Shown piece after piece: positions 1-45,901 of a DNA stretch of 52,328 nucleotides. The stretch is from a virus (Duplodnaviria; Caudoviricetes): the IMG/VR virus record IMGVR_UViG_3300010048_000016, positions 1 to 52,328 of that record. One strand, given 5' to 3'. The notes beneath the pieces are model-generated. The model saw only the letters and a program-made list of their open reading frames with translations, did no database searches and had not been told where the DNA came from. Within the stretch, counting starts at the first letter, position 1; every line of letters begins with the position of its first letter. A program made the translations under genes and the position numbers.

Positions 1-197
1 TCGGTGACGCGCATTATCTCGGCTGTATCGCTTGTGGCGATCGTTCCAATAGGCCAGCAGGTTGCGTTGAATGGTGGCGTCGGGAACTTCGCGCCATCGC
101 CCAGGCGTACGCGCAGAGAAGTGCCAGAAGCAGGAGGGTTAGGAGCAGTCCCTACGTAGCTGATTCCGAAGTTGACGTGGGCATCGAACTCCGACAT
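1..197 (-). CDS. Putative virion structural protein, N-terminal part (truncated by window edge); paralog of 12903..13517
   Basis: Not in the ORF track. Read manually on the minus strand: MSEFDAHVNFGISYVGTAPNPPASGTSLRVRLGDGAKFPTPPFNATCWPIGTIATSDTAEIMRVT. GGAG RBS upstream. Shares GAKFPTPPFNAT and AEI.RVT with 12903..13517. Confidence 0.8.
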   Translation of the reverse strand, partial: MSEFDAHVNFGISYVGTAPNPPASGTSLRVRLGDGAKFPTPPFNATCWPIGTIATSDTAEIMRVT

Positions 198-206
198 AGC
201 TGCTCC

Positions 207-419
207 TTACTCTGGTGGTGGTGTGGCTAGGCCTCCGCCGATTGGCTGGGAGGCAAACAGGCTAGGCGTGCCAACGCCGAAGCTACGAGTCTGTGTTGCT
301 GGTGCTTGCCCCTGTCCCTGACCGGGTAATGTGGGTGCGGCCAGAACGACTTGCTTTCCGCCCATTGAGCCGGGCTTGATCGTATTGGCGGGTAAACCAA
401 AGCTGCGGACCGAAGGCAT
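207..419 (-). CDS. Hypothetical protein (70 aa, G/P-rich)
   Basis: ATG start. The stop codon is immediately followed by the RBS of the 1..197 gene, suggesting a minus-strand operon. Confidence 0.55.
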   Translation of the reverse strand: MPSVRSFGLPANTIKPGSMGGKQVVLAAPTLPGQGQGQAPATQTRSFGVGTPSLFASQPIGGGLATPPPE

Positions 420-447
420 GGCGGAAGCATAAGCCCCGGAGCGGATC

Positions 448-463
448 GTGCCAACGTTGGCAC
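448..463. promoter_or_regulatory. 16-bp palindrome GTGCCAACGTTGGCAC, copy 1 (between divergent genes)
   Basis: Perfect palindrome. Identical copies at 10143, 22615, 39672 and 45774; one-mismatch copy at 3245. Confidence 0.75.
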
Positions 464-491
464 AAATTGCCCCTGGAGGTACGCTTTGCGT

Positions 492-728
492 ATGGCACTT
501 TCACTCAGCTCCATCCAACGTTTTCCGGCTTCGGTGCCCGCAAACACCGACAACATCACCGCAGTTCCAACCGGCGAGCACGGCGATACCGAAGGGAATA
601 TCCGGCCACCCACATCGCCCACCTCAGCTGAGGTTGCTGCTCTCCCCAAGGCTCAACCAACCGCGACGCAGAATCTCGGAGCGCCCGACGCGCAGGGGAT
701 GCCGCCTACCGGGATCGGCAATGGCTAG
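492..728 (+). CDS. Hypothetical protein
   Basis: ATG at 492 preceded by GGAGGT; overlaps the next ATG at 721. Confidence 0.55.
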   Translation: MALSLSSIQRFPASVPANTDNITAVPTGEHGDTEGNIRPPTSPTSAEVAALPKAQPTATQNLGAPDAQGMPPTGIGNG

Positions 729-891
729 TCGAGGCAAGTCAACGAGGGTCAAGGTCTGGCCGTTACCCAACGGTGTCAAGCGGCCTAACGAGAACAGTCA
801 GCCGCCATCGCGCGGGCTTCAGGTTGTGCTGGCCGTACCGGCACAGGGGTCGGGCAAGGGTGGCGGCCAGAAGGATTCGCACGCGGCCTAG
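721..891 (+). CDS. Small basic hypothetical protein
   Basis: ATG at 721 coupled to the upstream stop; MASRGKSTRVKVWPLPNG... Confidence 0.45.
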   Translation: MASRGKSTRVKVWPLPNGVKRPNENSQPPSRGLQVVLAVPAQGSGKGGGQKDSHAA

Positions 892-893
892 TT

Positions 894-916
894 CTGTCCG
901 ATCCCCCCGTTATGGT
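894..916 (+). promoter_or_regulatory. Putative phage promoter motif CTGTCCG.TCCC-N5-TATGGT (copy 1)
   Basis: 17/23 identity with 43426..43448 at identical spacing; both are intergenic and upstream of a gene; TANNNT-type -10. Confidence 0.4.
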
Positions 917-943
917 CTAGAGAACCGTGGAAAGGGGAAGCTG

Positions 944-1192
944 ATGGCAGATCGAATCCGTGTTTGCGGAATGGATACAAATGTCGTATTGCCGGAAAAC
1001 TGGATGCCCGTCGAAGGGGTCGCAATCCTCAAGTGTCTCGATGCCCAGGGAGATCCGCGTCTGCTGCTAGTTGCTACGCAGACCCTTTCCCAGTGGGAGG
1101 CCGTAGGCATGTTGACGGCAGCGCTTGACGAGATACGAGACAGCATGCAGAAGACCTTTGTGCCACCCGATCAAGTAGACGAGGATGGCTAG
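944..1192 (+). CDS. Hypothetical phage protein
   Basis: ATG at 944 after AAAGGGG; globular-looking sequence (..SQWEAVGML..) reminiscent of small actinophage proteins. Confidence 0.7.
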   Translation: MADRIRVCGMDTNVVLPENWMPVEGVAILKCLDAQGDPRLLLVATQTLSQWEAVGMLTAALDEIRDSMQKTFVPPDQVDEDG

Positions 1193-1352
1193 CCTGGTTC
1201 TGCGCCAGGAAGTGCGCAACGAGGCAGAGGAAGCGGGTCTCGAGGCGGCTTTCAAGGCCAACGATGAGCGGGAGATCTCCTATCACGCAGAGGAACTCGT
1301 GCTGGCAGCGATCAGAGCGGCGCTGCATGTGATCGAGGCACGTCTGGGATGA
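1185..1352 (+). CDS. Small hypothetical protein (55 aa)
   Basis: Read manually: MASLVLRQEVRNEAEEAGLEAAFKAND...; overlaps both neighbours as in translational coupling. Confidence 0.5.
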   Translation: MASLVLRQEVRNEAEEAGLEAAFKANDEREISYHAEELVLAAIRAALHVIEARLG

Positions 1353-1570
1353 CTCAGCCAAAACGCAAGCCACCAGTGCCGACAGCGCCACCTGTACCAT
1401 CTCATCCGATTGCCAGAGATCACAAGCGGCTCGCTTACGTCTGTTACAAGTGCGAAATTCCGCAGAGGGTGTTTGTCACCGATCCAAGTAAACCCCCGCC
1501 ACGGTGTGGAACACATGGAGCAATGGTTAGGCAAGGCAATCGTCCCTACTTCGGAAAGCCCACAGACTAG
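1349..1570 (+). CDS. Small zinc-ribbon protein
   Basis: ATGA overlap; CYKC ... CGTH metal-ligand pattern. Confidence 0.55.
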   Translation: MTQPKRKPPVPTAPPVPSHPIARDHKRLAYVCYKCEIPQRVFVTDPSKPPPRCGTHGAMVRQGNRPYFGKPTD

Positions 1571-2000
1571 ACCAGGCGTCTGTCCTAGTTGTGCGGGACC
1601 GACTCCCCTAGGTAAGAACGGCAAGCCACTGAAGTGGTGCTCGGATGAGTGTCGACGAGCTTTCTATGCTCAGCCATGTCCAAGCTGCGGCAAGCCGATG
1701 AGCGGCTCTGATGGGCATGGGCCCAATGCTCCGAAGCTGTGCCTGTCCTGCAACGGTGAGAGGTCGGGAGAGCTCGAGCGCCAGCGCTGGGCCGACTACA
1801 GCCAAGAGCGTGACAAAGCGATCATTCATCTGATGAGCTTGAACTGGACCAACCGAGAGATTGGTGAGGCGATGGGTTACACGGTGGCAAGCGTTGGACA
1901 GCTCATCGTCAGATTGCGCAGAAGGGGCGTTGCACTGCCTGAGCGTGTCAGAACTAAACCCGGCCAAAATGGAACACTTTCTAATTTTGGCCAGGTTTGA
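1515..2000 (+). CDS. Zinc-finger + C-terminal helix-turn-helix protein (putative transcription regulator)
   Basis: Four Cys pairs (CPSC, CSDEC, CPSC, CLSC) followed by an HTH-like segment WTNREIGEAMGYTVASVGQLIVRLRRRG. Start uncertain. Confidence 0.7.
   Translation: MEQWLGKAIVPTSESPQTRPGVCPSCAGPTPLGKNGKPLKWCSDECRRAFYAQPCPSCGKPMSGSDGHGPNAPKLCLSCNGERSGELERQRWADYSQERDKAIIHLMSLNWTNREIGEAMGYTVASVGQLIVRLRRRGVALPERVRTKPGQNGTLSNFGQV
1956..1998. repeat. 43-bp inverted-repeat site, copy 1
   Basis: AAACCCGGCCAAAAT-GGAACACTTTCTA-ATTTTGGCCAGGTTT; near-identical copy at 47496..47538. Confidence 0.85.
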
Positions 2001-2071
2001 GCGTATGAGACTCATAGTCATCATCTACGATCGTAGAAAGTCCCAAAGTGCGGGATGGGCCCGAGCAGCTC

Positions 2072-2115
2072 TGGACACCCTTTTTGCATTCAGGTAGAAT
2101 GATTTTATACCTGAA
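2072..2115 (+). promoter_or_regulatory. Sigma70-like promoter overlapped by an inverted repeat (operator-like)
   Basis: TGGACA(2072)-N17-TAGAAT(2095); TTCAGGTA(2089)...TACCTGAA(2108) inverted repeat; GGAGG RBS follows. Confidence 0.6.
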
Positions 2116-2127
2116 CTAATCGGAGGT

Positions 2128-2913
2128 GTGCCGATGGGTGACAGCACAGCGATTGCGTGGACGGATAAGACGTGGAACCCGTGGATGGGTTGCTTCAAGG
2201 TCTCACAGGGATGTACGCATTGCTATGCAGATACATTGACTTCGAACAAGATGGGCTTGGACGTTTTCGGGCATGACACGGCCAAGCGTAAGCGGACCGG
2301 ACAGAGTGTCTGGAACAGGCCCTACCGCTGGCACCGTGAGGCCATCATTGCTGGACAGCCCTCCCGTGTCTTCACCATGAGCCTGGGGGACTTCTTCGAG
2401 GATGCGCCGCAGCTGAACCAGTGGCGGGAGGAAGCCTGGGGGATCATCGAAGCCTGCTACTGGCTTGATTTCCAGATTCTGACCAAGCGGCCCGAGAACA
2501 TCCAGCGGATGCTTCCCGATACCTGGGACCAGCATCGCTCCGGCTATCCCTACTGGCCTAATGTATGGCTGGGAACCTCGATCGAAGATAATCGGGTAGC
2601 CGAGCGGTCGCCAATCCTGACCGGGGTTCCCGCTCACATCCACTTCATCAGCTACGAGCCCGCCATCGGTCCCGGTGATGAGATCGAGCTCGAGGGTGTC
2701 GAGTGGATGATCGTGGGCGGAGAGTCCGGTAGGGGCTATCGCCATATGGATCTGGACTGGGCTCGTGATATGCAGAGGCGCTGCAGGGCTGAGGCCGTGC
2801 ACTTCTTCTTCAAGCAGGACAGTGCATACCGGACCGAGATGCGCCCGGATGCTTTAGGACAGATTTATCGTGACTATCCCTGGAGCTGGGATCGAAAGGT
2901 GCTGGTGTTCTGA
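2128..2913 (+). CDS. DUF5131 / phage Gp37-Gp68 family protein (radical-SAM-like three-Cys motif)
   Basis: Characteristic motifs TAIAWTDKTWNPWMGCFKVSQGCTHCYA, FQILTKRPEN, NVWLGTSIE, ISYEP, WMIVGGESG, FFFKQ. Confidence 0.93.
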   Translation: MPMGDSTAIAWTDKTWNPWMGCFKVSQGCTHCYADTLTSNKMGLDVFGHDTAKRKRTGQSVWNRPYRWHREAIIAGQPSRVFTMSLGDFFEDAPQLNQWREEAWGIIEACYWLDFQILTKRPENIQRMLPDTWDQHRSGYPYWPNVWLGTSIEDNRVAERSPILTGVPAHIHFISYEPAIGPGDEIELEGVEWMIVGGESGRGYRHMDLDWARDMQRRCRAEAVHFFFKQDSAYRTEMRPDALGQIYRDYPWSWDRKVLVF

Positions 2914-3062
2914 TGGCTGAGCCCGCCTCAACCTGGAGCATTCGTCCATGCGAAGGTTGTGGTGCGGGCGTCAAATGCGCACCCGGCTATCCGGTAGACG
3001 TTCGGGTCTACTGCTGGCCGTGTATCCGCGAGCTACCTCCGCACCCTAAAGGCAAAGGCTGA
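2913..3062 (+). CDS. Small zinc-finger protein (49 aa)
   Basis: TGATG overlap; CEGC ... CWPC. Confidence 0.55.
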   Translation: MAEPASTWSIRPCEGCGAGVKCAPGYPVDVRVYCWPCIRELPPHPKGKG

Positions 3063-3064
3063 TT

Positions 3065-3289
3065 ATGACTCCTGAAGAAGAGCTAGCTGTGATGGTGCCT
3101 GGCTTTGAGTACAAGGGCGTTCCGTTCTCGCTACCCAAGCCAGTCGTGGACTACATCCACGAGCTCAAGGAGGATCGGGCTCGAGCGCTTCGGTCCGTAG
3201 ATGGACTTCATGCGCAGTTAGTTGCTCAACTAACTGCTAAGGAGGTGCCAACATTGGCACAAGACTCCCCCTGGCAGTGCTGGTCGTGA
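3065..3289 (+). CDS. Hypothetical protein
   Basis: ATG after the upstream stop; its 3' end runs into the palindrome and the start of the repeat array. Confidence 0.6.
   Translation: MTPEEELAVMVPGFEYKGVPFSLPKPVVDYIHELKEDRARALRSVDGLHAQLVAQLTAKEVPTLAQDSPWQCWS
3245..3260. promoter_or_regulatory. 16-bp palindrome, one-mismatch copy (GTGCCAACATTGGCAC), immediately upstream of the GGY array
   Basis: 15/16 match to GTGCCAACGTTGGCAC. Confidence 0.6.
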
Positions 3290-3693
3290 CAGGGCAAGGC
3301 ACGATGCGGTAGTGGGGCTCGGCTTGGTCCGGTTCCCCAAGGCACGGCATGTTGTGCTGGGCTTGGTTCGCGTGACGTGGTACGGGCGGTAAGGCTCAGG
3401 TTCGGTTCGTTCGGGCTTGGCGAGGCTCCCCGGGGCAAGGCAATGCATGTCATGGCTTGGCGAGGTAGTTCGCGTTAAGGTGAGGCTCCCTCCGGTTCCG
3501 TATGGTCCGGCAAGATCCGGTTCGGCAGGATGAGGGCTCGGTTGGGTGTGATAAGGCTCCCCAAGGCTCGGTGAGGTACGGTGCGTTCCGGTGCCGTGTG
3601 GTCGGGTGCGGAGCGGCAGGGCAAGGCAAGGCTCCCCATGTCCTGGCTGGTCTTGGAATGGGTCAGGTAGGCCACGGTAAGGTTTGGCTCGAC
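3262..3693 (+). repeat. Structured non-coding NN-GGY pentamer array, ~6 units delimited by (AG)GCTCCCC; candidate non-contiguous guide-RNA (VIPR-like) array
   Basis: Example 3563-3637: aa-ggc tc-ggt ga-ggt ac-ggt gc-gtt cc-ggt gc-cgt gt-ggt cg-ggt gc-gga gc-ggc ag-ggc aa-ggc aa-ggc TCCCC. Delimiters at ~3262, 3331, 3423, 3483, 3554 and 3629. The 5-nt period is out of register with codons. Confidence 0.85.
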
Positions 3694-3694
3694 T

Positions 3695-4432
3695 ATGCCT
3701 ACCAACGCACAGCGCCAGCACGTACTGCTGTTCCGCAAGGAGCTCCAGCGCAAGCGAATGCTGCGCTGGGCTCTCCCAGGGCCGATCTACGTGCCCTTCA
3801 TCGGGGACGGTGATCTGGCGGTCAAGCTCTATACGGATCGTCAGATCTACGGCGCTGACCTCGACCCACAGCGGGTGGCTACAGCCCAATCACGTCTCAA
3901 AGGCGACATCCGTGAGGGGGATTGCGACACCTGGCTTTTTGGCGATGTTAAGACCAAGTTCGCAGCTGCTGACTTCGATGCCTACGATCACCCCTACCCG
4001 GCGTTCGAGGCTTTCTGGGAGAACGCACAGAAGCTAGACCGGTTGGTGATGTTCTTCACCGATGGCCACCGCCAGGCGATCCTGCGGCTCGGCATCCACG
4101 TATGGCCGGACGGTCATACCACCTATCCGGCGAACATGTACGAGAAGCAAGCGCCGAACTATTTCTACCTGAGCCGCTACGTGTGGCCGTGGTTTGAGGA
4201 CTACATCGGCAACCGCTGGCGGGTGCTCGAGCGAATGCGCTATACCCGCCAGACGATCACCTACTGGGCCTGTGCAGTCGAGAAGCTCAAGACTCCTGCC
4301 AAACCCAGATTGCGCCCCGACGTGCCTTATCGAGGATCGCCAAAGATGGTACCCAAGGGAGCCAAGCGCCGCGTAGCTGTTTCAGCCACCGAGCGCAAAG
4401 CCAGGGCCAGACGTGAGAAGAATGAGGCCTAA
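3695..4432 (+). CDS. Putative SAM-dependent methyltransferase-like protein
   Basis: Rossmann-like motifs YVPFIGDGDL (motif I), YGADLD, EGDCD, AADFDAYDHPY (DxDxYxxP). DUF5131 genes are commonly partnered with methyltransferase-like genes. Confidence 0.6.
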   Translation: MPTNAQRQHVLLFRKELQRKRMLRWALPGPIYVPFIGDGDLAVKLYTDRQIYGADLDPQRVATAQSRLKGDIREGDCDTWLFGDVKTKFAAADFDAYDHPYPAFEAFWENAQKLDRLVMFFTDGHRQAILRLGIHVWPDGHTTYPANMYEKQAPNYFYLSRYVWPWFEDYIGNRWRVLERMRYTRQTITYWACAVEKLKTPAKPRLRPDVPYRGSPKMVPKGAKRRVAVSATERKARARREKNEA

Positions 4433-5006
4433 GGTTCCCTATCTCGAAGGCATGCTTGCGCCCGAGACGTTGCTGTGGGCGCTGGCCAATAACGCCGAGC
4501 TCTGTGCGCTGCCTCCTGGTGACGAGAGCTATTACTGGACCTTCCGTAAATGGTGGCTTGACTCAGAGCCTGGCGATCTGGTGATCGTGGAGCAGGACAT
4601 CGTGCCGCCACCTGACATTCTCTTTTCTTTCGCGGGCTGCCCGGCGCACTGGTGCGTCTGTTCGTATGACCTGCATCCCACCACCGAGAACGGCAAGGAC
4701 TACTCGCAGGCAATTCCGTTCGGCTGGGGCCTGGGCTGCACGCGCTTTTCGGGTGGATTGCGCCGAGGCTATCCCGAGCTTGCTGATAGAGCTGGTGAGC
4801 CACTGGTCTTTGGACCAGAGCCCGATCCCGACCCGCCTCGTGCCTGGTGGGTGATGGACATGCGATTGACCATGCACGTCAACCGGCTGGGCTATCTGCC
4901 CCACGATCATGGCCAGGCTCAGCATGTATCCTGTGCCGGTGGCCACCGAGACACTCAAGGGCTTCGGGCCCACGATTCAGCAGATCTACCTCGAGCACAT
5001 CCGTAA
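4422..5006 (+). CDS. Glycosyltransferase-like (GT-A fold) protein
   Basis: LVIVEQDIVP (DxD-like) and GLGCTRFS, matching the GMGCTLIH motif of 20763..21548. Confidence 0.6.
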   Translation: MRPKVPYLEGMLAPETLLWALANNAELCALPPGDESYYWTFRKWWLDSEPGDLVIVEQDIVPPPDILFSFAGCPAHWCVCSYDLHPTTENGKDYSQAIPFGWGLGCTRFSGGLRRGYPELADRAGEPLVFGPEPDPDPPRAWWVMDMRLTMHVNRLGYLPHDHGQAQHVSCAGGHRDTQGLRAHDSADLPRAHP

Positions 5007-5334
5007 CGGGATGCAACGCGGTGCAGCGGCCGAGGCGCTGGGGCTGAGCCGCCGTAAGGTCAGAGAGTGGATTCTCACCCATCCCGCCTTCGAGGCCTCC
5101 GTACAGGACGCGGAGACCGATGCGATTGAGCATGTCCAGGAGGCGCTCTACCAGGCTGCGATCAACGGATCGGTGTCCGCTGCCAGGACCTGGCTCGAAA
5201 TCAAGGGCGCTGTGGCCGGGCCCGACCGCCAGACAGGCCCTGTGAGGCCACCTGCGGCTCCTGGAGGCGATCCCTTCGCCGACTTGGACAATGTCTCGCC
5301 CCTGGACCACGCGAGGGCTAAGAAGCGCTTCTAG
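4909..5334 (+). CDS. Terminase small subunit-like HTH protein
   Basis: HTH (RGAAAEALGLSRRKVREW), ALYQAAINGSVSAARTWL; directly upstream of the large terminase. Confidence 0.7.
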   Translation: MARLSMYPVPVATETLKGFGPTIQQIYLEHIRNGMQRGAAAEALGLSRRKVREWILTHPAFEASVQDAETDAIEHVQEALYQAAINGSVSAARTWLEIKGAVAGPDRQTGPVRPPAAPGGDPFADLDNVSPLDHARAKKRF

Positions 5335-5360
5335 CTTCCCAGCGGGTCTAGAGTTCTGGC

Positions 5361-6809
5361 ATGGTCGTAGCCACCAGAGCGGACCCTTTCACCCTCGATC
5401 ACTTCGTCTCTTACGGTTCGCGCCTGGTGCTCGACACGGGTGAGCACTGGGAACCTGAAGACTTCCAGCTCGAGATAGTCGACCCAATCCTGCGGGGGAT
5501 CCGAGAGGTGTGGGTCCTCCTTCCTCAAGGGAATGCCAAGACCACCTTGATGGCGATCATGGCTCTCTACCACGCTGACTACACACCCAGTCCCTGGGTG
5601 CCTATCGGTGCGTCCTCACGCGACCAGGCCGAGATCATGTTCATGCAGGCTGCGGAGATCGTGCGTGCTAGTCCAGGCATGCTCAAGCGCTTTCGGGTTT
5701 ACGAGGGCTACCGCAAGATCGTTTCGCTGCGCAACGGTGGTCGAGGGATCAGGGTATATGCTGCTGATGCAAGCACGGGTGACGGTGTCATCCCCACGCT
5801 CGCCCTCCTAGACGAGGGTCACCGTCACCCGGACCTCTCGCTCTACCGGCTGTGGAAGGGCAAGCTCAACAAGCGCCGAGGTCAGATTGTGATGATCTCG
5901 ACGGCTGGCGAACCAGGCTCTGAGTTCGAAGAAACCCGAGACCTGATTCGCTCCAAAGTCGAGAAGAAACTCACCGAGGGCGCGCACATCATCTCCGAGG
6001 GTCGCAACATCACCATGCATGAGTGGCAGGTGCGCGACCCTCGCTTCATTGACCAGATGGACGAGGTCAAGGAAGCCAACCCATTGTCGATCATCACTGA
6101 GGACACACTGCGCGATGAGTTCGAATCACCAACGACCGATCTTGGCGACTGGAAGCGTCTTGTCTGCAACATTCCTTCACGTACCAACCGCGCCGCGATC
6201 ACCGATGCTGAGTGGGAAGACGCCAAAGAGGCCCGTCAGCTACCGGGCGGCGAACACATCGATGTGGGTGTGGACGTTGCCTGGAAGCACGATACCTTCG
6301 CGATTGCCCCGCTCTGGCGTGGACCTGAGTATCGACTACTAGGAGCTCCGCAAATCCTGGTGCCACCGCGTGACGGGTCGACCATGCATCCTGACGAGGT
6401 CAAGCAGGCCTTCTACGAAATGCATGCAGAGAACACGATCGATGCAGCTGTGATGGATATGGAGCGCGCGGAAGACATTGCCGCCTGGCTTGAGGATGAG
6501 CTGGACATCATGGTGATCGACCGGCCTCAGGGCAACGCCAACGCGATCGAGGACTACGACGCTTTCATGCAGGCTCTGCGAAACGGTACCCTCAAGCACA
6601 CGGGCGACCGAGGTCTGCGCAACCACGTGATGAATGCCATCGTCAGATCGATGCCAGCCGACAAGAAGCGGTTTGACCGCCCATCCCAGTCTCGAGCCAA
6701 GAAGCGCCAGAACGTTCGGGTCATCGATGCGCTTACAGCAGCTGCGATGGTCAACCACTACGCAGCCAGCTCTGCTGGCATGGGTGAGCCGCTGGTGGCC
6801 TGGAGATAG
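5361..6809 (+). CDS. terL: Terminase large subunit
   Basis: Walker A PQGNAKTT, ASSRDQA, Walker B LALLDEGH, coupling motif ISTAG, nuclease GVDVAWKHD and VIDALTA. Confidence 0.95.
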   Translation: MVVATRADPFTLDHFVSYGSRLVLDTGEHWEPEDFQLEIVDPILRGIREVWVLLPQGNAKTTLMAIMALYHADYTPSPWVPIGASSRDQAEIMFMQAAEIVRASPGMLKRFRVYEGYRKIVSLRNGGRGIRVYAADASTGDGVIPTLALLDEGHRHPDLSLYRLWKGKLNKRRGQIVMISTAGEPGSEFEETRDLIRSKVEKKLTEGAHIISEGRNITMHEWQVRDPRFIDQMDEVKEANPLSIITEDTLRDEFESPTTDLGDWKRLVCNIPSRTNRAAITDAEWEDAKEARQLPGGEHIDVGVDVAWKHDTFAIAPLWRGPEYRLLGAPQILVPPRDGSTMHPDEVKQAFYEMHAENTIDAAVMDMERAEDIAAWLEDELDIMVIDRPQGNANAIEDYDAFMQALRNGTLKHTGDRGLRNHVMNAIVRSMPADKKRFDRPSQSRAKKRQNVRVIDALTAAAMVNHYAASSAGMGEPLVAWR

Positions 6810-6810
6810 C

Positions 6811-6993
6811 GTGCCTGTCTCTCGCTACTACAAGGGCCACGGTCGTAAGGTCATGCGGTCGATGAAGAGCCGCTATGGCTCAAAGCAGGGCAGGAGCGTT
6901 TTCTACGCCACCGTCAACAAGTGGCGCACTCACGGAACGAAGGCCCAGAAGGCCGCTCAACCCAAGCGAGCACCTGGAGCCAAGAGGAGGTAG
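6811..6993 (+). CDS. Small basic protein
   Basis: GTG at 6811 after GGAG; MPVSRYYKGHGRKVMRSMKSRYGSKQGRSVFYATVNK. Confidence 0.6.
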   Translation: MPVSRYYKGHGRKVMRSMKSRYGSKQGRSVFYATVNKWRTHGTKAQKAAQPKRAPGAKRR

Positions 6994-6995
6994 TC

Positions 6996-7214
6996 GTGGC
7001 CAGAGGCAGAAGGGGCTCAAGGCCGATCAAACCCCTGAACCCGGCGAACAAAGGAAAGTTGCGCAAAGCCGCAGGCAAAGGTAAGAAGGGTAAGAAGCTG
7101 ACCGTGGCAGAGCTCAACCGGCTCAAGCGCTCACCCAACCCGCTAACGAGGAAGCGAGCTACGTTCGCGCTAAATGCACGAAAGTGGAGTAACAAGCCAC
7201 GTAAGAGCCGATGA
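6996..7214 (+). CDS. Small highly basic protein
   Basis: GTG at 6996 after GAGGAGG; K/R-rich with NPANKGKL...KRATFALNARKW. Confidence 0.7.
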   Translation: MARGRRGSRPIKPLNPANKGKLRKAAGKGKKGKKLTVAELNRLKRSPNPLTRKRATFALNARKWSNKPRKSR

Positions 7215-7441
7215 AGCGCGTTGCGATCGTTATCACGCTGTTCATCGTAGGGTTAGGGCTGTTCGTGACCGGGGTCTGGTTTATCTTCTGGCCTGCAGCG
7301 CTGTGCGTTGCCGGGGTCGGCATTCTGTTCGGAGCTGCAACGATCGATATTCCAGATCGCTTGCCTGGAGGCGAGGCAGTCAATATTGTTGATGAAACCT
7401 CGGAGGAGCCGATAGCCACCATCGCCAGAGTGCGTGGGTAG
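7211..7441 (+). CDS. Small membrane protein
   Basis: Two hydrophobic segments; located directly upstream of the portal. Confidence 0.7.
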   Translation: MKRVAIVITLFIVGLGLFVTGVWFIFWPAALCVAGVGILFGAATIDIPDRLPGGEAVNIVDETSEEPIATIARVRG

Positions 7442-7461
7442 CGCCGGAAGATCGATAGCCA

Positions 7462-9072
7462 GTGTCGAATCTCGTACAGCGGGCGCGACGGTCCGTAAGC
7501 CGGTCGGGTAGCCCCTGGCCGCTGCTGACGCTCGATCAACTGCCTGCGTGGATGGGGCAGTTCGGCTACCAGGGCCTTGGCTACGGGCCCGCTCTGATCC
7601 AGACCTACCAGCAGAAGACCGAGACGATTCAGTCGGACTTCGTTGGTTATATCAATGGGGCCTACAAGACCAACGGACCGGTCTTTGCCTGCGTCCTGAT
7701 GCGGATGCTGCTGTTCAGCGAGATGACCTTCCAGTTCCGAGGCTCCAACAACGGTCGTCCAGGCAAGCTCTACGGCACCAAGGCTCTGAGACTCCTCGAG
7801 GAACCCTGGCAGAACGCCACAACCGGTGACCTTCTGACGCGGATGGAGGTCGACCTCAGCCTATCTGGCAATTTCTATGCGACCACTGTGCCTGACAAGA
7901 CGATGGCCAGCGGCCAGCGTGTCTGCCGGATGCGACCAGACTGGGTGACGATCATTCTCGGCTCGCTCGAGGATCACACAGTCGATGCCTTCGATCCCAC
8001 CGCTGTGAAGATCGGCTACCTGTACACGCCGGGAGGCCCTGGCTCTGGTCTACCGCCGAAGCTCTACCAGCCCGACAGGGTCTGCCACTACGCGGTGGTG
8101 CCAGACCCGATGGCGCACTTCCGGGGCATGTCGTGGCTGCAGCCGGTGCTGGCAGACATCATGGGCGACCGCTCAATGACCACCCATAAGCTGATGTTCT
8201 TCGAGAACGGAGCTACGCCCAACCTGGTGGTCTCGATGGACACCAACTTCAAGGATCGTAAGACCTTCACCGACTGGGTCAACACCTTCCGCGCAGAGCA
8301 CGAAGGCTCATTCAATGCCTATAAGACTCTGTACCTGGGTCACGGGTCGACGGCTCAGGTGATTGGCTCGACCATCAAGGACCTGGACTATCGGGTGGTC
8401 CAGAGCCACGGTGAAGCTCGTATCGCTTCGGCAGCCGGTCTACCACCGATCATCATGGGCTTTCAGGCCGGGTTGGAGGCCTCCACTTACTCCAACTACG
8501 GTCAGGCCCGTAGAGCTGCCGCAGACCAGTTGCTCCGACCGCTCTGGCGCAACGCTGCTGGGTCACTTGCACCGTTGGTTGAGGTGCCGGGCGGCTCGGA
8601 GCTCTGGTACGACGACCGGGACATTTCGTTCCTACAGGCAGACCTTTCTGACCAGGCGGATGTGCAGCTCACCAAAGCGACTGCCATCCGCCTTCTTGTT
8701 GATTCAGGCTACGAGCCAGACAGTGTGGTCGACGCAGTCGAGGCTGATGACTACACGCTCTTGAAGCACTCGGGTCTGTACTCGGTACAGCTGCAAGCAC
8801 CGAGTACGACGCTGCTACCAGCCGTAGGCGCAGGCTGGGAACCGGGTCCAGGGACACCACCTCCCACCCCTGGTCAAGGACCTCCGAGTCAGGGCAACGG
8901 CTCCAACGGCAAGCCGACTGGCACCCAGCCTGCGCCGGGAGCCTTGCCTGCTGGCAAGCGGAGCGCCACAATAGCCGGAAACGTCAGTAATGTTCCACAA
9001 CTCGCGCAGGCGCTTATTGCGGCACGGCGAGGCGAGAAAAGCAATAAGCGAGGCGAGAATGGCCATCTCTGA
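7462..9072 (+). CDS. Portal protein (HK97 family)
   Basis: VFACV, LSGNFY, MRPDWV, GMSWL, FFENGATP, IASAAGLPPIIMG, TYSN; position after terminase. Confidence 0.93.
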   Translation: MSNLVQRARRSVSRSGSPWPLLTLDQLPAWMGQFGYQGLGYGPALIQTYQQKTETIQSDFVGYINGAYKTNGPVFACVLMRMLLFSEMTFQFRGSNNGRPGKLYGTKALRLLEEPWQNATTGDLLTRMEVDLSLSGNFYATTVPDKTMASGQRVCRMRPDWVTIILGSLEDHTVDAFDPTAVKIGYLYTPGGPGSGLPPKLYQPDRVCHYAVVPDPMAHFRGMSWLQPVLADIMGDRSMTTHKLMFFENGATPNLVVSMDTNFKDRKTFTDWVNTFRAEHEGSFNAYKTLYLGHGSTAQVIGSTIKDLDYRVVQSHGEARIASAAGLPPIIMGFQAGLEASTYSNYGQARRAAADQLLRPLWRNAAGSLAPLVEVPGGSELWYDDRDISFLQADLSDQADVQLTKATAIRLLVDSGYEPDSVVDAVEADDYTLLKHSGLYSVQLQAPSTTLLPAVGAGWEPGPGTPPPTPGQGPPSQGNGSNGKPTGTQPAPGALPAGKRSATIAGNVSNVPQLAQALIAARRGEKSNKRGENGHL

Positions 9073-10630
9073 CAAAGAGCGGATCTCCGAAGACAAGTGG
9101 GACGGCTCCGCTGGTCGCTTCACCGACGAACAGTATGAGAGCTCCTGCGTGCTGGACCGAAAGGTGTGTGGCGAGGAGTGGGCTGACAAGCCTCCCAAGA
9201 CGCGCTGCTCACTGCCGATCAAGGAGCCTGGCGGGGAGCTGTCTCGTGCTGGCGTACACGCTGCCGCAGCTCGGATCAATCAGGTGGAGAATGCCTGCCC
9301 GGAGGCGCTCGCTTCGGCCAAGGCAAAGCTTCGTAGCGCATACAAGACACTCGGTGAAGATCCACCCGACTCGCTGAGCTCGAGCAAGTCAGACCAGGCC
9401 TCAACGGTCTACCGTGACCGGGCGCTGGCCTCGCTTGAGCATGAGTGGGAGCTCCGTGAGAAGCCTGAGCCTGGCTATCTGGGAACACTCGCCGGACACT
9501 TCGCCGTGTTTGACCGCTGGACGGAAATCGACTCTCCACTGGAGGGTCACTTCATGGAGCGTCTGGCTCCAGGAGCATTCACCAAGACCTTCTCTGAGAA
9601 CCGCAAGAACATGCGCGTGCTGCTCAATCACGGCAAGGATCCCAGTGTCGGCATGAAGCCGCTGGGGCCGATCCGCGAGCTCGGTGAGGACTCAAGCGGA
9701 GCCTTCTATGAGGTGGCACTGCTCGACACCTCCTATAACCGCGACCTGGTGCCAGGGCTCAAGGAGGGCTTGTTCGGGGCGAGCTTCCGTTTCCAGATCA
9801 GGCGCGAGGACTTCGACCAGTTCCCCGATCGCTCAGACCACAACCCCGAGGGGATCCCGGAATCAACGATTCGCGAATGCAAGGTCAAGGAGTTCGGGCC
9901 TGTCACCTTCGGCCAGTACGAGACAGCTACGGCCGGGTTGCGCTCGCTCAACGATGACCTTGTGGGCCTCGAGCTCAATCTGATGGCACGCTCAGACCCG
10001 GGGGCCGTGGCGCGGTTTGCTCGTGCCATCGCTGAGGAGCATGAGCTTCAGGAGACCGGCTTTCAATCCAATCGTCTGATGGTGCCCTTCGTTCAGAGCG
10101 CCTCGCCCAACTTCACGGTGTCCGTGACCACGGATAACCCCGGTGCCAACGTTGGCACAGGAGCAGAAGAGCGCACAAAGCCGGATCAGGAGCGCAACGA
10201 TCCCACCAATGTGGACGGCTCAATCCTCTGGGCGCTGCAGGACCTCAAAGCCCACGTTGCCCAGGTCAAGGGCATGCAACTCACGGATCCAGATGACGAT
10301 GACTCAGACGACGACGCGGTTATGTCTGCTCTGGATGACGTTGAGGATGCAGTGGATGCCGCCATCAAAGCCCAGGCTGCCGATTGTCGCCCAGACGATA
10401 ACGGCGATGACGGTGATGATGACAGCGGACCAATGGGCATGTTCTCCGAAGCAGAATCGGAGGACGACAAAGCCCGAGAGGACGAAGAGACTTCACCCGT
10501 AAAACCAGCACCAAGCGCACTCGCAGACCGAGCGCCGGTCCGGGGCCCAACGCCACCGGGAGCCACCCTCAAGAAGCGTGCAGCGCTCCTCACCCATCGC
10601 ACCGATAAGGAGCCGACATGGAGGTTGTAG
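9059..10630 (+). CDS. HK97-family prohead protease with N-terminal extension and acidic scaffold-like C-terminus
   Basis: GHFAVFD, FMERLAPGAF, LLNHG, GASFRF, EFGPVTF; D/E-rich tail. Confidence 0.9.
   Translation: MAISDKERISEDKWDGSAGRFTDEQYESSCVLDRKVCGEEWADKPPKTRCSLPIKEPGGELSRAGVHAAAARINQVENACPEALASAKAKLRSAYKTLGEDPPDSLSSSKSDQASTVYRDRALASLEHEWELREKPEPGYLGTLAGHFAVFDRWTEIDSPLEGHFMERLAPGAFTKTFSENRKNMRVLLNHGKDPSVGMKPLGPIRELGEDSSGAFYEVALLDTSYNRDLVPGLKEGLFGASFRFQIRREDFDQFPDRSDHNPEGIPESTIRECKVKEFGPVTFGQYETATAGLRSLNDDLVGLELNLMARSDPGAVARFARAIAEEHELQETGFQSNRLMVPFVQSASPNFTVSVTTDNPGANVGTGAEERTKPDQERNDPTNVDGSILWALQDLKAHVAQVKGMQLTDPDDDDSDDDAVMSALDDVEDAVDAAIKAQAADCRPDDNGDDGDDDSGPMGMFSEAESEDDKAREDEETSPVKPAPSALADRAPVRGPTPPGATLKKRAALLTHRTDKEPTWRL
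10143..10158. promoter_or_regulatory. 16-bp palindrome copy (intragenic, protease linker)
   Basis: Exact GTGCCAACGTTGGCAC; encodes GANVGT. Confidence 0.7.
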
Positions 10631-22459: not shown

Positions 22460-23069
22460 CGCCAGTGCTGTCGCTGCAGAGCCAGAGCCCGTAACAATCC
22501 CGCCGCCAGAACCCTCGATCGAAGACCAGATTGGTCCCGAGCCGCCCGACGAGGACGAGGCAGAAGCTCAGATCACTCCGGAGCCGCAGGCCCCAATCGA
22601 ACTGGCGGAGCCCGGTGCCAACGTTGGCACAGAGGAACCGGATGAGGATGACATCCTCGATCTGACCTCAATCGTGCCGCCTCGCAAGCTGGTCCGTATC
22701 CCGGTCAAGGGCAGCCCCAAGGGCGAGGTTCATGAGCTTCGCCTCCTGGACGATTTTGGGATCGAAGAACAGCAGCAGCTGCTGTCCTGGTCAAAGCGCT
22801 TCGAGGCGCTGTGGAACAAGGACGGCAAGGATCTGACGCCGCGTGAGCGGGTCAAGATGAAGTGGCTCCTGAACGCGATGTTCTTCAAGGTGCTCGATGC
22901 TCCTGACGAGGTCAAGCGCAACGTGGACGACACCGTAAAGAGCCGGGTGGTGACGGCTTTTACGATGGTGCCGCTGCTCGAGCGGCAGAAGCGCGAGGCG
23001 GAGCAGGAGGCACAGCAGGAGGAGGACGACGGGATCCCAACCTCCGACCTCCCGAGTACAGCGAGCTAG
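22437..23069 (+). CDS. Tail assembly chaperone (gpG-like)
   Basis: GTG at 22437 after AGGAGG; between tail tube and tape measure genes. Confidence 0.7.
   Translation: MTTEVAPDASAVAAEPEPVTIPPPEPSIEDQIGPEPPDEDEAEAQITPEPQAPIELAEPGANVGTEEPDEDDILDLTSIVPPRKLVRIPVKGSPKGEVHELRLLDDFGIEEQQQLLSWSKRFEALWNKDGKDLTPRERVKMKWLLNAMFFKVLDAPDEVKRNVDDTVKSRVVTAFTMVPLLERQKREAEQEAQQEEDDGIPTSDLPSTAS
22615..22630. promoter_or_regulatory. 16-bp palindrome copy (intragenic)
   Basis: Exact GTGCCAACGTTGGCAC; encodes GANVGT. Confidence 0.7.
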
Positions 23070-39671: not shown

Positions 39672-39687
39672 GTGCCAACGTTGGCAC
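39672..39687. promoter_or_regulatory. 16-bp palindrome copy at the late/early junction
   Basis: Exact GTGCCAACGTTGGCAC, intergenic. Confidence 0.75.
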
Positions 39688-45020: not shown

Positions 45021-45901
45021 CAGCACTCAAATTTATCAAGCCTCCGGAGTCTCCGAGGGCCAACATACTGCTTTGCGGCCCGCCAAAATCAGGGAAAACG
45101 ATAGGAGCAGCTTCGGCTCCTCCCGGCGTTCTGCTACTCAACTTCGATCTTCCCAACGCCAGCCGTCAGGCACACCTACGCCATCCTGACGGTTCGATCA
45201 TGGAGCCCGAGATTCCGCAGTTCGTGGAGGGCTCCAGGCCGCTGTTCGCGTTCATGATGACGGTCATGAAGGAGGTCCAGCGGCCCGACCAGACGATGAT
45301 CCAGACGGTGGTGGTGGACAAGGTGGATGAGCTCTACCGCAGACTGCTCGAGGAGTTCTCAAACCGCTCGGTTCGACCCAGCTTGCCCACCTACGGGGAG
45401 GTCTCAGTCCAGGTGGAGCGATTCATCCGGGCGCTATGCATGGCACCCAACGTCAACACGGTGATTGTCTGCACGGACATGGTTATGCAGAACGGCGATG
45501 AGACGGTGTTCATCCCATTCACCGGAACGAAGGCCGGAAGCGCGGACCTCGGAGCCAAGCTGGCCAGCATGGTCGACATCCTCGGCTACACCGCCGTGAT
45601 TGAGCAGGACAATGGCGAGAAGCAGGGAATCGCCCAGCTGATCCCGCTCAAGGGCCGTAACGGCGGGGACCGCTTCGACTGCCTCGGGGACTGGAGGCCG
45701 CTCGATATCTCAGAATGGCTGAACACCATTGAGGCATACGAGCGCGGAGAGCAAGTCAAGCGGTTTGATCGTGGTGCCAACGTTGGCACAGAAGAACCCA
45801 AACCAGAACCGGAGGCGGACCCCAGACCCGATACCACTTCGGTTACTGCTCAGGAGCACAACAAGCGCGTAGCAACGCGCTCACGCAGAAAGGCGGCATA
45901 A
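45017..45901 (+). CDS. Sak4-like AAA ATPase (recombination)
   Basis: Walker A GPPKSGKT, TVVVD, VDILGY; lies between exonuclease and SSB genes. Confidence 0.8.
   Translation: MTALKFIKPPESPRANILLCGPPKSGKTIGAASAPPGVLLLNFDLPNASRQAHLRHPDGSIMEPEIPQFVEGSRPLFAFMMTVMKEVQRPDQTMIQTVVVDKVDELYRRLLEEFSNRSVRPSLPTYGEVSVQVERFIRALCMAPNVNTVIVCTDMVMQNGDETVFIPFTGTKAGSADLGAKLASMVDILGYTAVIEQDNGEKQGIAQLIPLKGRNGGDRFDCLGDWRPLDISEWLNTIEAYERGEQVKRFDRGANVGTEEPKPEPEADPRPDTTSVTAQEHNKRVATRSRRKAA
45774..45789. promoter_or_regulatory. 16-bp palindrome copy (intragenic)
   Basis: Exact GTGCCAACGTTGGCAC; encodes GANVGT. Confidence 0.7.

What the first reader, a model, noticed from the sequence alone, without database searches (positions are those of the whole stretch)
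3262..3693. NN-GGY pentamer array: candidate non-contiguous-code guide RNA array (VIPR-like)
Seen: ~430 bp of non-coding DNA with 5-nt periodicity. A near-constant GGY triplet (variants GTY, GAY, TGC, CGT) alternates with a freely variable dinucleotide. It is organised into ~6 units of ~11-18 pentamers, separated by a conserved (AG)GCTCCCC delimiter, and most units end aa-ggc or ga-ggc. The units differ in their NN strings (unit 3432-3486: GG AA AA AT AT TT GA AG GC AA GA; unit 3563-3632: AA TC GA AC GC CC GC GT CG GC GC AG AA AA). This is an interleaved scaffold/information layout, not a slippage microsatellite, which would homogenise NN. Recalled knowledge (not verifiable here): a recently reported phage system, VIPR, uses alternating GGY/NN RNAs bound by a Cas7/RAMP-like protein to recognise a gapped DNA target. 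Inference: each unit is a processed guide whose NN pairs specify a target NN-x-NN-x..., possibly in competing phages.
Basis: partly seen in the sequence, partly recalled or inferred. Interest (0 to 1): 0.95.

Follow-up and report, generated by a model that had tools for sequence, protein, structure and literature searches.

The report
Guide-RNA array lacking its protein gene
This soil phage carries six back-to-back guide RNAs of the recently described VIPR family but no gene for the protein that uses them, so it probably borrows that protein from a rival virus.

Summary
Window 3272-3693 (+) is a period-5 NN-GGY tract (parse score 276 against 100 +/- 10 in shuffles). It forms six head-to-tail units of 11-18 pentamers. 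Five units end in an in-phase tcCCC/tcCCT pentamer.

It is a VIPR vrRNA array, a kind published in 2026. Arrays with the same GGCTCCCC terminator lie within about 260 nt of a Vipr gene in 8 other IMG/VR phage records.

No Vipr gene was found in the window or in the 35-kb sister record. Three HMMs, hhalign and a profile search with a positive control all found nothing. The adjacent 245-aa gene has a SAM-methyltransferase fold, not a RAMP fold. I read the array as vipr-less ("solo"), which is also a published concept.

In units shared with the sister phage, NN bases differ at 3 of 79 sites and GGY bases at 26 of 127 (p = 0.0007). There is no codon periodicity. The information-bearing bases are therefore under selection.

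One guide (U5) matches an intergenic site in the sister phage at 23 of 28 positions under the 1-nt-skip rule (0 of 3000 shuffles reach this). No other target was found. Expression and processing are untested.

Verdict: a new member of a known kind, of moderate interest.

The parts
2072..2100 (+). Only sigma-70-like promoter match near the array (TGGACA-17-TAGAAT), upstream of the DUF5131 gene. It is a candidate start of a transcript that would read through the array.
   Evidence: 1 match, against 1.0 expected in shuffles, so this is weak. No terminator-like site in 1900-4600.
2128..2913 (+). DUF5131 gene (261 aa). It marks the upstream edge of the array slot.
   Evidence: Pfam PF07505, E 9.8e-66. 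The slot is conserved in L006 and L054.
3065..3289 (+). 74-aa ORF of unknown function. Its last codons overlap the leader and the start of U1.
   Evidence: ORF list. No Pfam, PHROG or NCBIfam match. 80% aa identity over 59 residues to L006.
3245..3260 (.). One copy of a 16-nt palindrome (GTGCCAACATTGGCAC), 11 nt before U1. It is one of six copies in the window.
   Evidence: 6 sites, against 0.07 expected. Conserved in L006 and L054.
3265..3271 (+). CTCCCCC motif immediately before U1, resembling the unit terminators.
   Evidence: Sequence.
3272..3338 (+). vrRNA unit U1. NN string: (N) AG TG GT AG AA AC GC (N)(N) TC TT CC. Terminator tcCCC. Orthologous to the first unit of L006.
3339..3431 (+). 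vrRNA unit U2 (18 pentamers, four of them irregular). Terminator GGCTCCCC. Its 3' two-thirds are orthologous to the third unit of L006.
3432..3491 (+). vrRNA unit U3. NN string: GG AA AA AT AT TT GA AG GC AA GA. Terminator GGCTCCCT. It has an ortholog in L006.
3492..3562 (+). vrRNA unit U4. NN string: CC TC AT CC AA CC TC AG (N) TC TG GT AA. Terminator GGCTCCCC. Absent from L006.
3563..3637 (+). vrRNA unit U5, the cleanest unit. NN string: AA TC GA AC GC CC GC GT CG GC GC AG AA AA. Terminator GGCTCCCC. Absent from L006. It has a candidate target in the sister phage.
3638..3693 (+). vrRNA unit U6. It ends GGCTCGAC, not CCCC. Its 3' half is orthologous to the last unit of L006.
3695..4432 (+). 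245-aa class I SAM-dependent methyltransferase-fold protein, directly downstream of the array. It is not a Vipr.
   Evidence: AlphaFold2 pLDDT 90.1. Foldseek against PDB: MnmM, Trm1, METTL6 and similar, best E 4e-9. 197 representative homologs.

Best explanation
The tract is an array of six VIPR guide RNAs (vrRNAs). It belongs to a class in which units lie head to tail, and each unit ends in an in-phase pentamer whose GGY is replaced by CCC (GGC-UC-CCC). The phage has no vipr gene of its own, so this is a 'solo' array.

Inferred mechanism:
- The array is transcribed on the + strand, probably as part of the operon that runs from the DUF5131 gene into the terminase genes.
- A Vipr protein of the GLGEMRPVYGRF clade coats each run of GGY/NN pentamers. 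That protein would be made by a co-infecting phage or a resident element in the same host.
- The CCC pentamer cannot be bound. It ends one filament and leaves a short unprotected linker, where the transcript is cut into RNAs of about 55-95 nt.
- Each ribonucleoprotein then reads double-stranded DNA by the published NNx (1-nt-skip) code and silences it.
- The likely targets are competing phages. The one candidate found is an iteron-like intergenic region of the closest known sister phage.

Shown here: the periodic anatomy; homology of the architecture to Vipr-linked arrays; absence of vipr from the available sequence; selection on the NN bases; and turnover of units between relatives.

Inferred only: transcription, processing, loading in trans, and the target.
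For: (1) The anatomy meets the published definition of 9-16 YNNGG repeats, with a calling threshold of at least 4 units (paper 10.64898/2026.04.26.720920, sections 4 and 20). This array has 11-18 pentamers per unit and stands far above chance.

(2) A scan of IMG/VR for three GGYNN repeats followed by GGCTCCCC returned 53 loci. Arrays of the same class occur in L127, L133, L135, L138/L124, L140, L141, L146, L152, L143 and L156. Eight of these records have a Vipr (HMM E 2e-41 to 6e-57) within about 260 nt of the array. A ninth record, G005, has a divergent Vipr (E 6.7e-14) 64 nt from its main arrays.

(3) GGY conformity here is 0.66, inside the 0.63-0.81 range of the Vipr-linked arrays.

(4) L146 is a distant relative (portal 50%, TerL 25% identity). 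It has vipr, then the array, a few kb upstream of TerL, which is the same neighbourhood as here.

(5) No Vipr was found in the window, the whole sister record G001, L054, L007 or L143:
- type-II HMM built from 120 retrieved homologs;
- hhalign against 435 ORFs;
- a G-loop regular expression;
- profile A2, with L146 as positive control at 1.9e-105;
- a combined HMM, all E above 0.5.
The window plus G001 span about 73 kb of a genome estimated at 72-82 kb.

(6) Orthologous units of the window and L006 differ at 3 of 79 NN sites and at 26 of 127 GGY sites (Fisher p = 0.0007). Third codon positions of the flanking genes differ at 84 of 262 and 73 of 202 sites.

(7) The slot is conserved in three lineages, but the units differ. 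Two further soil runs hold other variants.

(8) U5 matches the sister record at 23 of 28 positions only with a 1-nt skip (18, 17 and 19 with skips of 0, 2 and 3). None of 3000 NN shuffles and none of 3000 base shuffles reach 23.

(9) No self-target exceeds the null, as published for natural vrRNAs.

(10) Solo vrRNAs on vipr-null phages are described in 10.64898/2026.10.15.759431 (abstract and section 8).
Against: No expression or processing data exist for this sequence.

The record is only 64% complete, and the window and the sister record do not overlap at their far ends. A gap remains that could hold a vipr gene. Record G005 shows that arrays can lie 20-40 kb from the vipr gene of the same genome.

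The tail is 8 nt long, not the roughly 40-nt pseudoknot of the characterised type II systems.

Nine of 85 units are 4 or 6 nt long, which should break a one-protomer-per-5-nt register.

G2 differs between sister phages at 15 of 42 sites, about the neutral rate. That is odd for a contacted base, although G2 is also the least conserved scaffold position in the Vipr-linked arrays (0.67-0.86).

The U5 candidate has its 5 mismatches in the 3' half, whereas published unwinding proceeds 3' to 5'. It is intergenic, and it was found after several search sets had been tried.

The other five window guides did not exceed their shuffled controls in any set searched, except the single U3 hit found by pattern. 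None of 65 guides from Vipr-linked arrays match this phage at 0.8 or better.
Confidence: 0.55

Rival explanations
1. This is a complete VIPR system. The phage does encode a Vipr, but in the part of the genome absent from this 64%-complete record, and the array is simply remote from it.
For: CheckV completeness is 64% for the window and 49% for the sister record. Their far ends share no nucleotide similarity, so a gap remains. In G005 (114 kb) arrays at about 34 kb and 55 kb lie 20-40 kb from the Vipr gene at about 76 kb.
Against: In 8 of 8 records with the GLGEMRP-clade Vipr, the gene is within about 260 nt of an array. The window plus the sister record cover about 73 kb of an estimated 72-82 kb without a hit. 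Here the array's immediate neighbours are a DUF5131 gene, two small ORFs and a methyltransferase.
Confidence: 0.2
2. This is an RNA decoy (anti-VIPR sponge). The array is transcribed to soak up a rival's Vipr protomers, or to send them to harmless sites. It does not silence a chosen target. This would resemble the decoy role reported for satellite solo vrRNAs.
For: The array is vipr-less. Six guides in one transcript would bind about 80 protomers. No convincing target was found for five of the six guides. The published satellite solo vrRNAs redirect Vipr to host decoy sites (abstract).
Against: A pure sponge needs GGY, not particular NN bases, yet NN is the most conserved part (3 of 79 against 26 of 127). 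The host genome is unknown, so decoy sites in it could not be searched.
Confidence: 0.13
3. This is a decaying remnant of a VIPR locus whose vipr gene was deleted. It no longer has a function.
For: There is no vipr gene. There are irregular 4- and 6-nt units. G2 diverges at about the neutral rate. In L006 a 61-aa ORF interrupts the array.
Against: NN positions are about as constrained as second codon positions of the neighbouring genes (3.8% against 3.5-7.6%). GGY conformity equals that of Vipr-linked arrays. The array persists, with different units, in three lineages that are 74-92% identical in the neighbouring protein.
Confidence: 0.07
4. This is a DNA-level element, not an RNA. For example, it could be a terminase recognition (pac) region or a G-rich structural repeat upstream of the packaging genes.
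For: It lies 1.2 kb upstream of the small terminase gene, and in L146 the array also lies upstream of TerL. No transcript evidence exists.
Against: The same repeat class is tied to Vipr genes in nine other records. Unit content turns over between close relatives, which a packaging site would not tolerate. L007, a relative with the same flanking genes, has no array.
Confidence: 0.03

Closest known systems
Type II VIPR systems of Escherichia phage SUSP1 and the Pseudomonas fulva prophage (bioRxiv 10.64898/2026.04.26.720920 and 10.64898/2026.04.26.720927)
   Same: Alternating GGY/NN pentamers, about 9-18 per guide, with several guides in a row on one strand. The Vipr proteins linked to this array class match the SUSP1-family HMM at E 2e-41 to 6e-57. 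No self-targets.
   Different: There is no vipr or vap gene here. The invariant 3' element is 8 nt (GGCUCCCC), in phase with the repeats, and not a roughly 40-nt pseudoknot tail. Units abut directly, whereas the SUSP1 vrRNAs read are separated by leaders and tails. In the linked Viprs the G-loop is GLGEMRPVYGRF, against GVGDWRPRFGRF in SUSP1.
Solo (orphan) vrRNAs of F5 satellites and vipr-null SUSP1-like phages (bioRxiv 10.64898/2026.10.15.759431; abstract and sections 8 and 17 read)
   Same: vrRNAs carried by a mobile element that lacks vipr, presumed to use a rival's Vipr.
   Different: Those cases are 1-2 vrRNAs with pseudoknot tails in Enterobacteriaceae phages, left by a defined 1,114-bp vipr-vap1 deletion. 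Here there are six guides of another array class in an uncultured soil phage whose TerL is at most 26% identical to that of any isolated phage. The array sits between a DUF5131 gene and a methyltransferase gene. No deletion scar was identified.
Staggered vrRNA arrays (legend of fig. S18 in 10.64898/2026.04.26.720920; only the legend could be read)
   Same: [quoted passage not shown]
   Different: I could not see the figure or data S4, because supplements are closed. Whether those arrays use the GGCUCCCC terminator, and which VIPR type they belong to, is unknown to me.
Phage-borne CRISPR mini-arrays and RNA anti-CRISPRs (recalled from memory; no call made)
   Same: A virus carries only the RNA half of an RNA-guided system and exploits, or jams, a protein made elsewhere.
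   Different: A different protein family and a contiguous guide code. This is an analogy only.

Membership tests
VIPR vrRNA | Tandem YNNGG (GGY/NN) pentamers: at least 4 units to call one, typically 9-16 per vrRNA | tested here: met
   80 pentamers in six units of 11-18. G1 90%, G2 79%, Y 95%. Parse score 276 against 100 +/- 10 in shuffles.
VIPR vrRNA | An invariant 3' element (tail) capping each repeat tract | tested here: inconclusive
   Five of six units end in GG[CT]T[CT]CC[CT], 8 nt and in phase. The same terminator recurs in Vipr-linked arrays. There is no 40-nt tail and no significant fold (z -0.3 to +1.2).
VIPR vrRNA | NN positions carry the information: they differ between guides and are selected within a guide | tested here: met
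   All six NN strings differ. Between orthologous units NN differs at 3 of 79 sites and GGY at 26 of 127 (p = 0.0007). No 3-nt periodicity of substitutions (p = 0.61).
VIPR vrRNA | Arrays of this architecture are physically linked to Vipr genes elsewhere | tested here: met
   Eight records have a Vipr within about 260 nt of the array, and G005 has a divergent Vipr. L143 has none in its 46%-complete record.
VIPR vrRNA | Natural targets matching at least 80% of NN positions under the 1-nt-skip rule | tested here: inconclusive
   U5 matches 23 of 28 (0.82) in sister record G001, specific to skip 1, with 0 of 6000 shuffles reaching it. U3 matches 20 of 22 in a 38%-GC phage portal gene, which I judge to be chance. 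The other four window guides did not exceed their shuffled controls in any set searched. Only exact 10-NN patterns could be scanned in IMG/VR.
VIPR vrRNA | Expressed as discrete small RNAs that co-purify with Vipr | not testable with these tools
   This needs small-RNA sequencing and a pull-down.
Complete VIPR system (vipr + vap + vrRNA) | A vipr (minimal RAMP) gene in the locus | tested here: not met
   No hit in the window, G001, L054, L007 or L143 with three HMMs, hhalign, a motif search and a profile search. Positive controls: L146 at 1.9e-105 and G005 at 6.7e-14. The adjacent 245-aa protein has a methyltransferase fold.
Complete VIPR system (vipr + vap + vrRNA) | A vap accessory gene next to vipr | not tested
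   No vap profiles were available apart from SUSP1 vap1. That sequence was in the phmmer query file, but only Vipr rows were seen in the printed output. Supplements listing vap1-6 are closed.
Solo vrRNA on a vipr-null element | vrRNA present, and vipr absent from the whole element | tested here: inconclusive
   Absent from 52.3 kb plus 21 kb of sister sequence, but a gap remains.
Solo vrRNA on a vipr-null element | Guides aimed at rival VIPR loci, satellites or host decoy sites | tested here: not met
   No window guide exceeds the null on 11 loci (84 kb) or on the 335 kb of whole records that carry arrays of this class. The host genome is unknown, so decoy sites could not be tested.

The most novel reading that the evidence does not exclude
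Multi-guide solo vrRNA arrays are a general weapon of vipr-less soil phages. This phage carries six guides that commandeer the Vipr of a co-infecting rival. At least one guide (U5, absent from the sister's array) is aimed at an origin-like intergenic region of its closest relative. Sister phages would then fight each other with a protein that neither encodes. The in-phase CCC pentamer would be a minimal 'stop' codon for Vipr filament growth, replacing the structured tail and allowing guides to be packed head to tail.
Probability: 0.25. Interest if true: 0.65.

Novelty: new member of a known kind. Interest (0 to 1): 0.45.

Why it matters
VIPR was described only in 2026 and has been characterised in two type II systems. 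This locus extends the vipr-less ("solo") vrRNA idea in three ways: from 1-2 guides in Enterobacteriaceae phages to a six-guide array; to an uncultured soil phage lineage; and to an array class that uses an 8-nt in-phase terminator instead of a pseudoknot tail.

The comparison with the sister phage gives a natural-selection readout of the code. NN bases are as constrained as second codon positions. G2 of the scaffold drifts at about the neutral rate.

If the CCC pentamer really ends a Vipr filament, it is a very compact way to delimit guides, and it could be useful for multiplexed VIPR tools.

None of this changes the picture of what VIPR is.

Tried and rejected
The 245-aa gene directly downstream of the array was my first Vipr candidate. 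A PDB sequence search found nothing. A model built on 59 sequences (pLDDT 90.1) matches class I SAM methyltransferases. Rejected as a RAMP.

The 197-aa ORF 4413-5006 gave only galactose-oxidase noise in PDB and has no family match.

Pfam and PHROGs on 30 further window ORFs found no RAMP.

Megablast of 2000-6000 against isolated phages gave no match. TerL is at most 26% identical to that of any isolated phage, so the host is unknown.

A first terminator pattern in IMG/VR returned 41 loci, none of them arrays. Of 57 IMG/VR loci with the methyltransferase family, only the L006 contig has a GGY array.

Profile A2 in genome contigs found one distant hit in a Bacteroidales MAG, which gives no clue to the host. 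The nearest Viprs in isolated phages are about 40% identical, in Gordonia and Mycobacterium phages. Gordonia phage Trine has no array in the 100-nt gap I read.

Rfam, at E up to 1 over 1-8000, gave no match. The units fold no better than shuffles.

Target searches:
- Self and L006: nothing above the null.
- U5 10-NN exact pattern in IMG/VR: 0 hits.
- U3 10-NN exact pattern: 1 hit (L058). NN fall on codon positions 1-2 of a portal gene, but the phage is 38% GC, the 11th NN mismatches and no other guide hits it. Judged to be chance.
- 1.05 Mb of session loci, Vipr-linked loci and five whole records: only the U5 hit on G001.
- 65 guides of Vipr-linked arrays against the window and G001: 0 at 0.8 or better.

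No RNA holder was listed among the sequencing runs. Three soil DNA runs hold the stretch, and one of them may be its source. This says nothing about expression.

A tblastx step printed nothing and may not have run. Only its blastn part is used.

Supplements of the VIPR papers are closed. Figs S16-S19 and data S3-S4 may already list this array class.

Complex prediction, the protein-atlas search and the second structure job were not used.
Full report
WHAT IS THERE

Window 3262-3693 has a strong 5-nt period. Self-match is 0.46 at lag 5 and 0.43 at lags 10 and 15, against 0.19-0.32 at the other lags from 1 to 20. On the + strand no other place in the 52,328-base window has 6 or more of 10 in-phase pentamers with GG; the - strand has two isolated windows with 6. 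The lag-5/10 excess points to the same place.

A dynamic-programming parse into NN-GGY units, with penalised 4- and 6-nt units, scores 276. In 500 shuffles the mean is 100, sd 10, maximum 134.

The parse gives 80 NN-GGY pentamers and 5 terminator pentamers. The units are U1 3272-3338, U2 3339-3431, U3 3432-3491, U4 3492-3562, U5 3563-3637 and U6 3638-3693. G1 is G in 90% of pentamers, G2 in 79%, and position 3 is a pyrimidine in 95%.

Units 1-5 end in a pentamer that stays in phase but carries CCC or CCT where GGY should be (tcCCC four times, tcCCT once). U6 ends GGCTCGAC, one base before the ATG at 3695.

The tract is on the same strand as all neighbouring genes. Its first 18 nt overlap the end of a 74-aa ORF.

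CONTEXT

The window is an IMG/VR virus record, linear, estimated 64% complete. It is a tailed phage. The gene order around the array is:
- DUF5131 gene, 2128-2913;
- two small ORFs;
- the array;
- a 245-aa gene, 3695-4432;
- a 197-aa ORF;
- small terminase and large terminase;
- portal and capsid genes.

TerL is at most 26% identical to that of any isolated phage, so the host is unknown. Three soil metagenome runs hold the stretch.

The only promoter-like match is at 2072-2100. There is no terminator-like site in 1900-4600 and no Rfam match in 1-8000. The units fold no better than shuffles (z -0.3 to +1.2). That fits a protein-coated single strand better than a structured RNA.

WHAT IS KNOWN

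VIPR is in print. I read sections 4, 18, 20 and 27 and several passages of bioRxiv 10.64898/2026.04.26.720920. I read passages of the structure paper 10.64898/2026.04.26.720927. I read the outline and sections 8 and 17 of 10.64898/2026.10.15.759431, and passages of 10.64898/2026.10.21.760802. A second literature search found no other VIPR paper.

The published picture is as follows:
- vrRNAs are 9-16 YNNGG repeats followed by an invariant 3' tail.
- One Vipr protomer (a minimal RAMP of about 195 aa) binds each repeat.
- The NN bases read double-stranded DNA, skipping every third base.
- There are seven types, and array architectures vary. They include 'staggered' arrays in which one vrRNA ends where the next begins.
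- Satellites and 346 vipr-null Enterobacteriaceae phages carry 'solo' vrRNAs.

IS THERE A VIPR GENE HERE?

The 245-aa neighbour is not one. Its model (pLDDT 90.1) matches class I SAM methyltransferases (best E 4e-9).

I located SUSP1 vipr between its arrays. A homolog search found 529 proteins and listed 120, which I used to build an HMM. That HMM, hhalign against 435 six-frame ORFs and a G-loop motif search found nothing in the window or in the sister contig.

The decisive step was a scan of IMG/VR for three GGYNN repeats followed by GGCTCCCC. Of 53 loci, ten hold arrays of the same class, from nine records because L124 and L138 share a contig: head-to-tail NN-GGC units of about 10-25 pentamers ending tcCCC. 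Eight records carry a Vipr within about 260 nt of the array (E 2e-41 to 6e-57; G-loop GLGEMRPVYGRF).

So the partner protein of this array class is easy to detect. It is nevertheless absent from the window and from the whole 35-kb sister record G001. The positive control, L146, scored 1.9e-105. A broadened HMM also finds nothing (all E above 0.5).

G001 adds about 21 kb upstream of the window. Together the two records span about 73 kb of a genome that CheckV puts at 72-82 kb. Their far ends do not overlap, so a gap remains.

One caution. I first took record G005 (114 kb, 92% complete) to be vipr-less. It has a divergent Vipr (E 6.7e-14) beside about 4 kb of arrays, and two further arrays 20-40 kb away. 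Remote arrays therefore exist in vipr-positive genomes.

L146 is a distant relative of this phage (portal 50% identical). It has vipr and then the array a few kb upstream of TerL, the same neighbourhood as here.

COMPARATIVE EVIDENCE OF FUNCTION

The slot between the DUF5131 gene and the methyltransferase gene holds an array in three lineages. These are the window, L006 (92% aa identity in the methyltransferase) and L054 (74%). The units differ:
- L006 shares U1, part of U2, U3 and part of U6.
- L006 lacks most of U4 and all of U5.
- L006 has one unit of its own and a 61-aa ORF inserted in the array.
- L054 has three other units with the same terminators.

Contigs from two further soil runs show more variants. 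L007 (49% identity) has no array.

Within orthologous units, NN bases differ at 3 of 79 sites. GGY bases differ at 26 of 127 sites: G1 4 of 42, G2 15 of 42, Y 7 of 43. Fisher's p is 0.0007.

Substitutions show no 3-nt periodicity (8 of 68, 9 of 69, 12 of 69; p = 0.61). The flanking genes do show it (26, 20 and 84 of 262; 12, 7 and 73 of 202).

NN is thus as constrained as second codon positions, and G2 drifts at about the rate of third positions. This excludes an overlapping ORF and a neutral relic. It is what a guide with a fixed target would show. G2 is also the loosest scaffold position in Vipr-linked arrays (0.67-0.86).

One difference from the Vipr-linked arrays is pyrimidine use. Here GGC and GGT are about equally common (28 and 25). 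The Vipr-linked arrays strongly prefer GGC, for example 66 to 1 and 115 to 8.

TARGETS

With the published scoring there is no self-target above shuffled-NN controls, as reported for natural vrRNAs.

Exact 10-NN scans of IMG/VR gave 0 hits for U5. They gave 1 hit for U3, in a 38%-GC phage, which I judge to be chance.

Across 1.05 Mb of session loci, 84 kb of Vipr-linked loci and 335 kb of whole records, one hit stands out. U5 matches the sister record G001 at 23 of 28 positions (0.82), and only with a 1-nt skip. None of 3000 NN shuffles and none of 3000 base shuffles reach 23.

The site is intergenic, between a hairpin and an AT-rich, iteron-like stretch. It lies in a part of the genome that the window lacks, so self and non-self cannot be compared.

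The five mismatches are in the 3' half, which is awkward given 3'-to-5' unwinding. I treat this hit as a lead, not a finding.

None of 65 guides from Vipr-linked arrays hit this phage at 0.8 or better.

VERDICT

The tract is a vrRNA array of the VIPR family, in a class with head-to-tail units and an in-phase CCC terminator. Within the sequence available it is vipr-less.

The most likely mechanism is use of a rival's Vipr in trans. The CCC pentamer would end each filament. The rivals are a vipr gene in the unsequenced gap, a decoy role, a relic and a DNA-level element.

Because VIPR and solo vrRNAs are already published, this is a new member of a known kind. Its value lies in the six-guide solo array, the minimal terminator and the selection signature on NN.

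Noticed in passing
window 448-463, 3245-3260, 10143-10158, 22615-22630, 39672-39687, 45774-45789: A 16-nt perfect palindrome, GTGCCAACGTTGGCAC (one copy has A for G), occurs six times where 0.07 is expected. Three copies sit in frame inside ORFs, coding G-A-N-V-G-T. Others lie in intergenic regions upstream of major genes. Three sites are conserved in L006, and one lies inside the DUF5131 gene of L054. It may be a binding site for a phage regulator or a parS-like site. One copy is 11 nt before the array.
   Followed up: partly
L078 5350-6180 (IMG/VR locus; its methyltransferase is 45% identical to the window's): A divergent Vipr gene (5459-6103, 214 aa, HMM E 2.3e-5) is flanked by pentamer arrays whose fixed triplet is NGC rather than GGY. 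The gLM preprint mentions non-canonical VIPR repeats.
   Followed up: partly
G005 (record of L156): L186 11630-15633 (-), L184 14348-14432 (-), L185 15506-15871 (+): A 114-kb, 92%-complete phage record has about 4 kb of GGCTCCCC-class arrays next to a divergent Vipr (75697-76419, -). It also has two further arrays 20-40 kb away.
   Followed up: partly
window 207-770: This stretch is conserved at the nucleotide level with L006, but the conserved reading frames keep shifting. It is probably a non-coding control region between a divergent collagen-like gene (window 3-197, -) and the + strand genes. It contains one copy of the palindrome.
   Followed up: no
window 2128-2913 and 3695-4432: A DUF5131 protein has a weak match to radical-SAM mobile pair protein A (TIGR04471, 37 bits against a cut-off of 355). 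It and a methyltransferase-fold protein flank the array. The pair also occurs without an array in L007.
   Followed up: partly
L006 9720-9905: A 61-aa ORF with no family match lies inside the sister phage's array, splitting it in two.
   Followed up: no
L009 13650-14060 (record G001): A roughly 400-nt intergenic region has repeated AT-rich motifs and a strong hairpin. It is the site of the U5 candidate target and may be an origin or control region.
   Followed up: partly
window 23471-32161: A single 2,896-aa ORF in the tail-gene region, presumably a tape-measure or tail fusion protein. Not examined.
   Followed up: no
window array compared with Vipr-linked arrays: GGC and GGT are used about equally here (28 and 25; L006 10/14 and 7/5). 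Vipr-linked arrays of the class strongly prefer GGC, for example 66/1, 115/8 and 34/0. Those phages have 64-70% GC, against 60% here.
   Followed up: no
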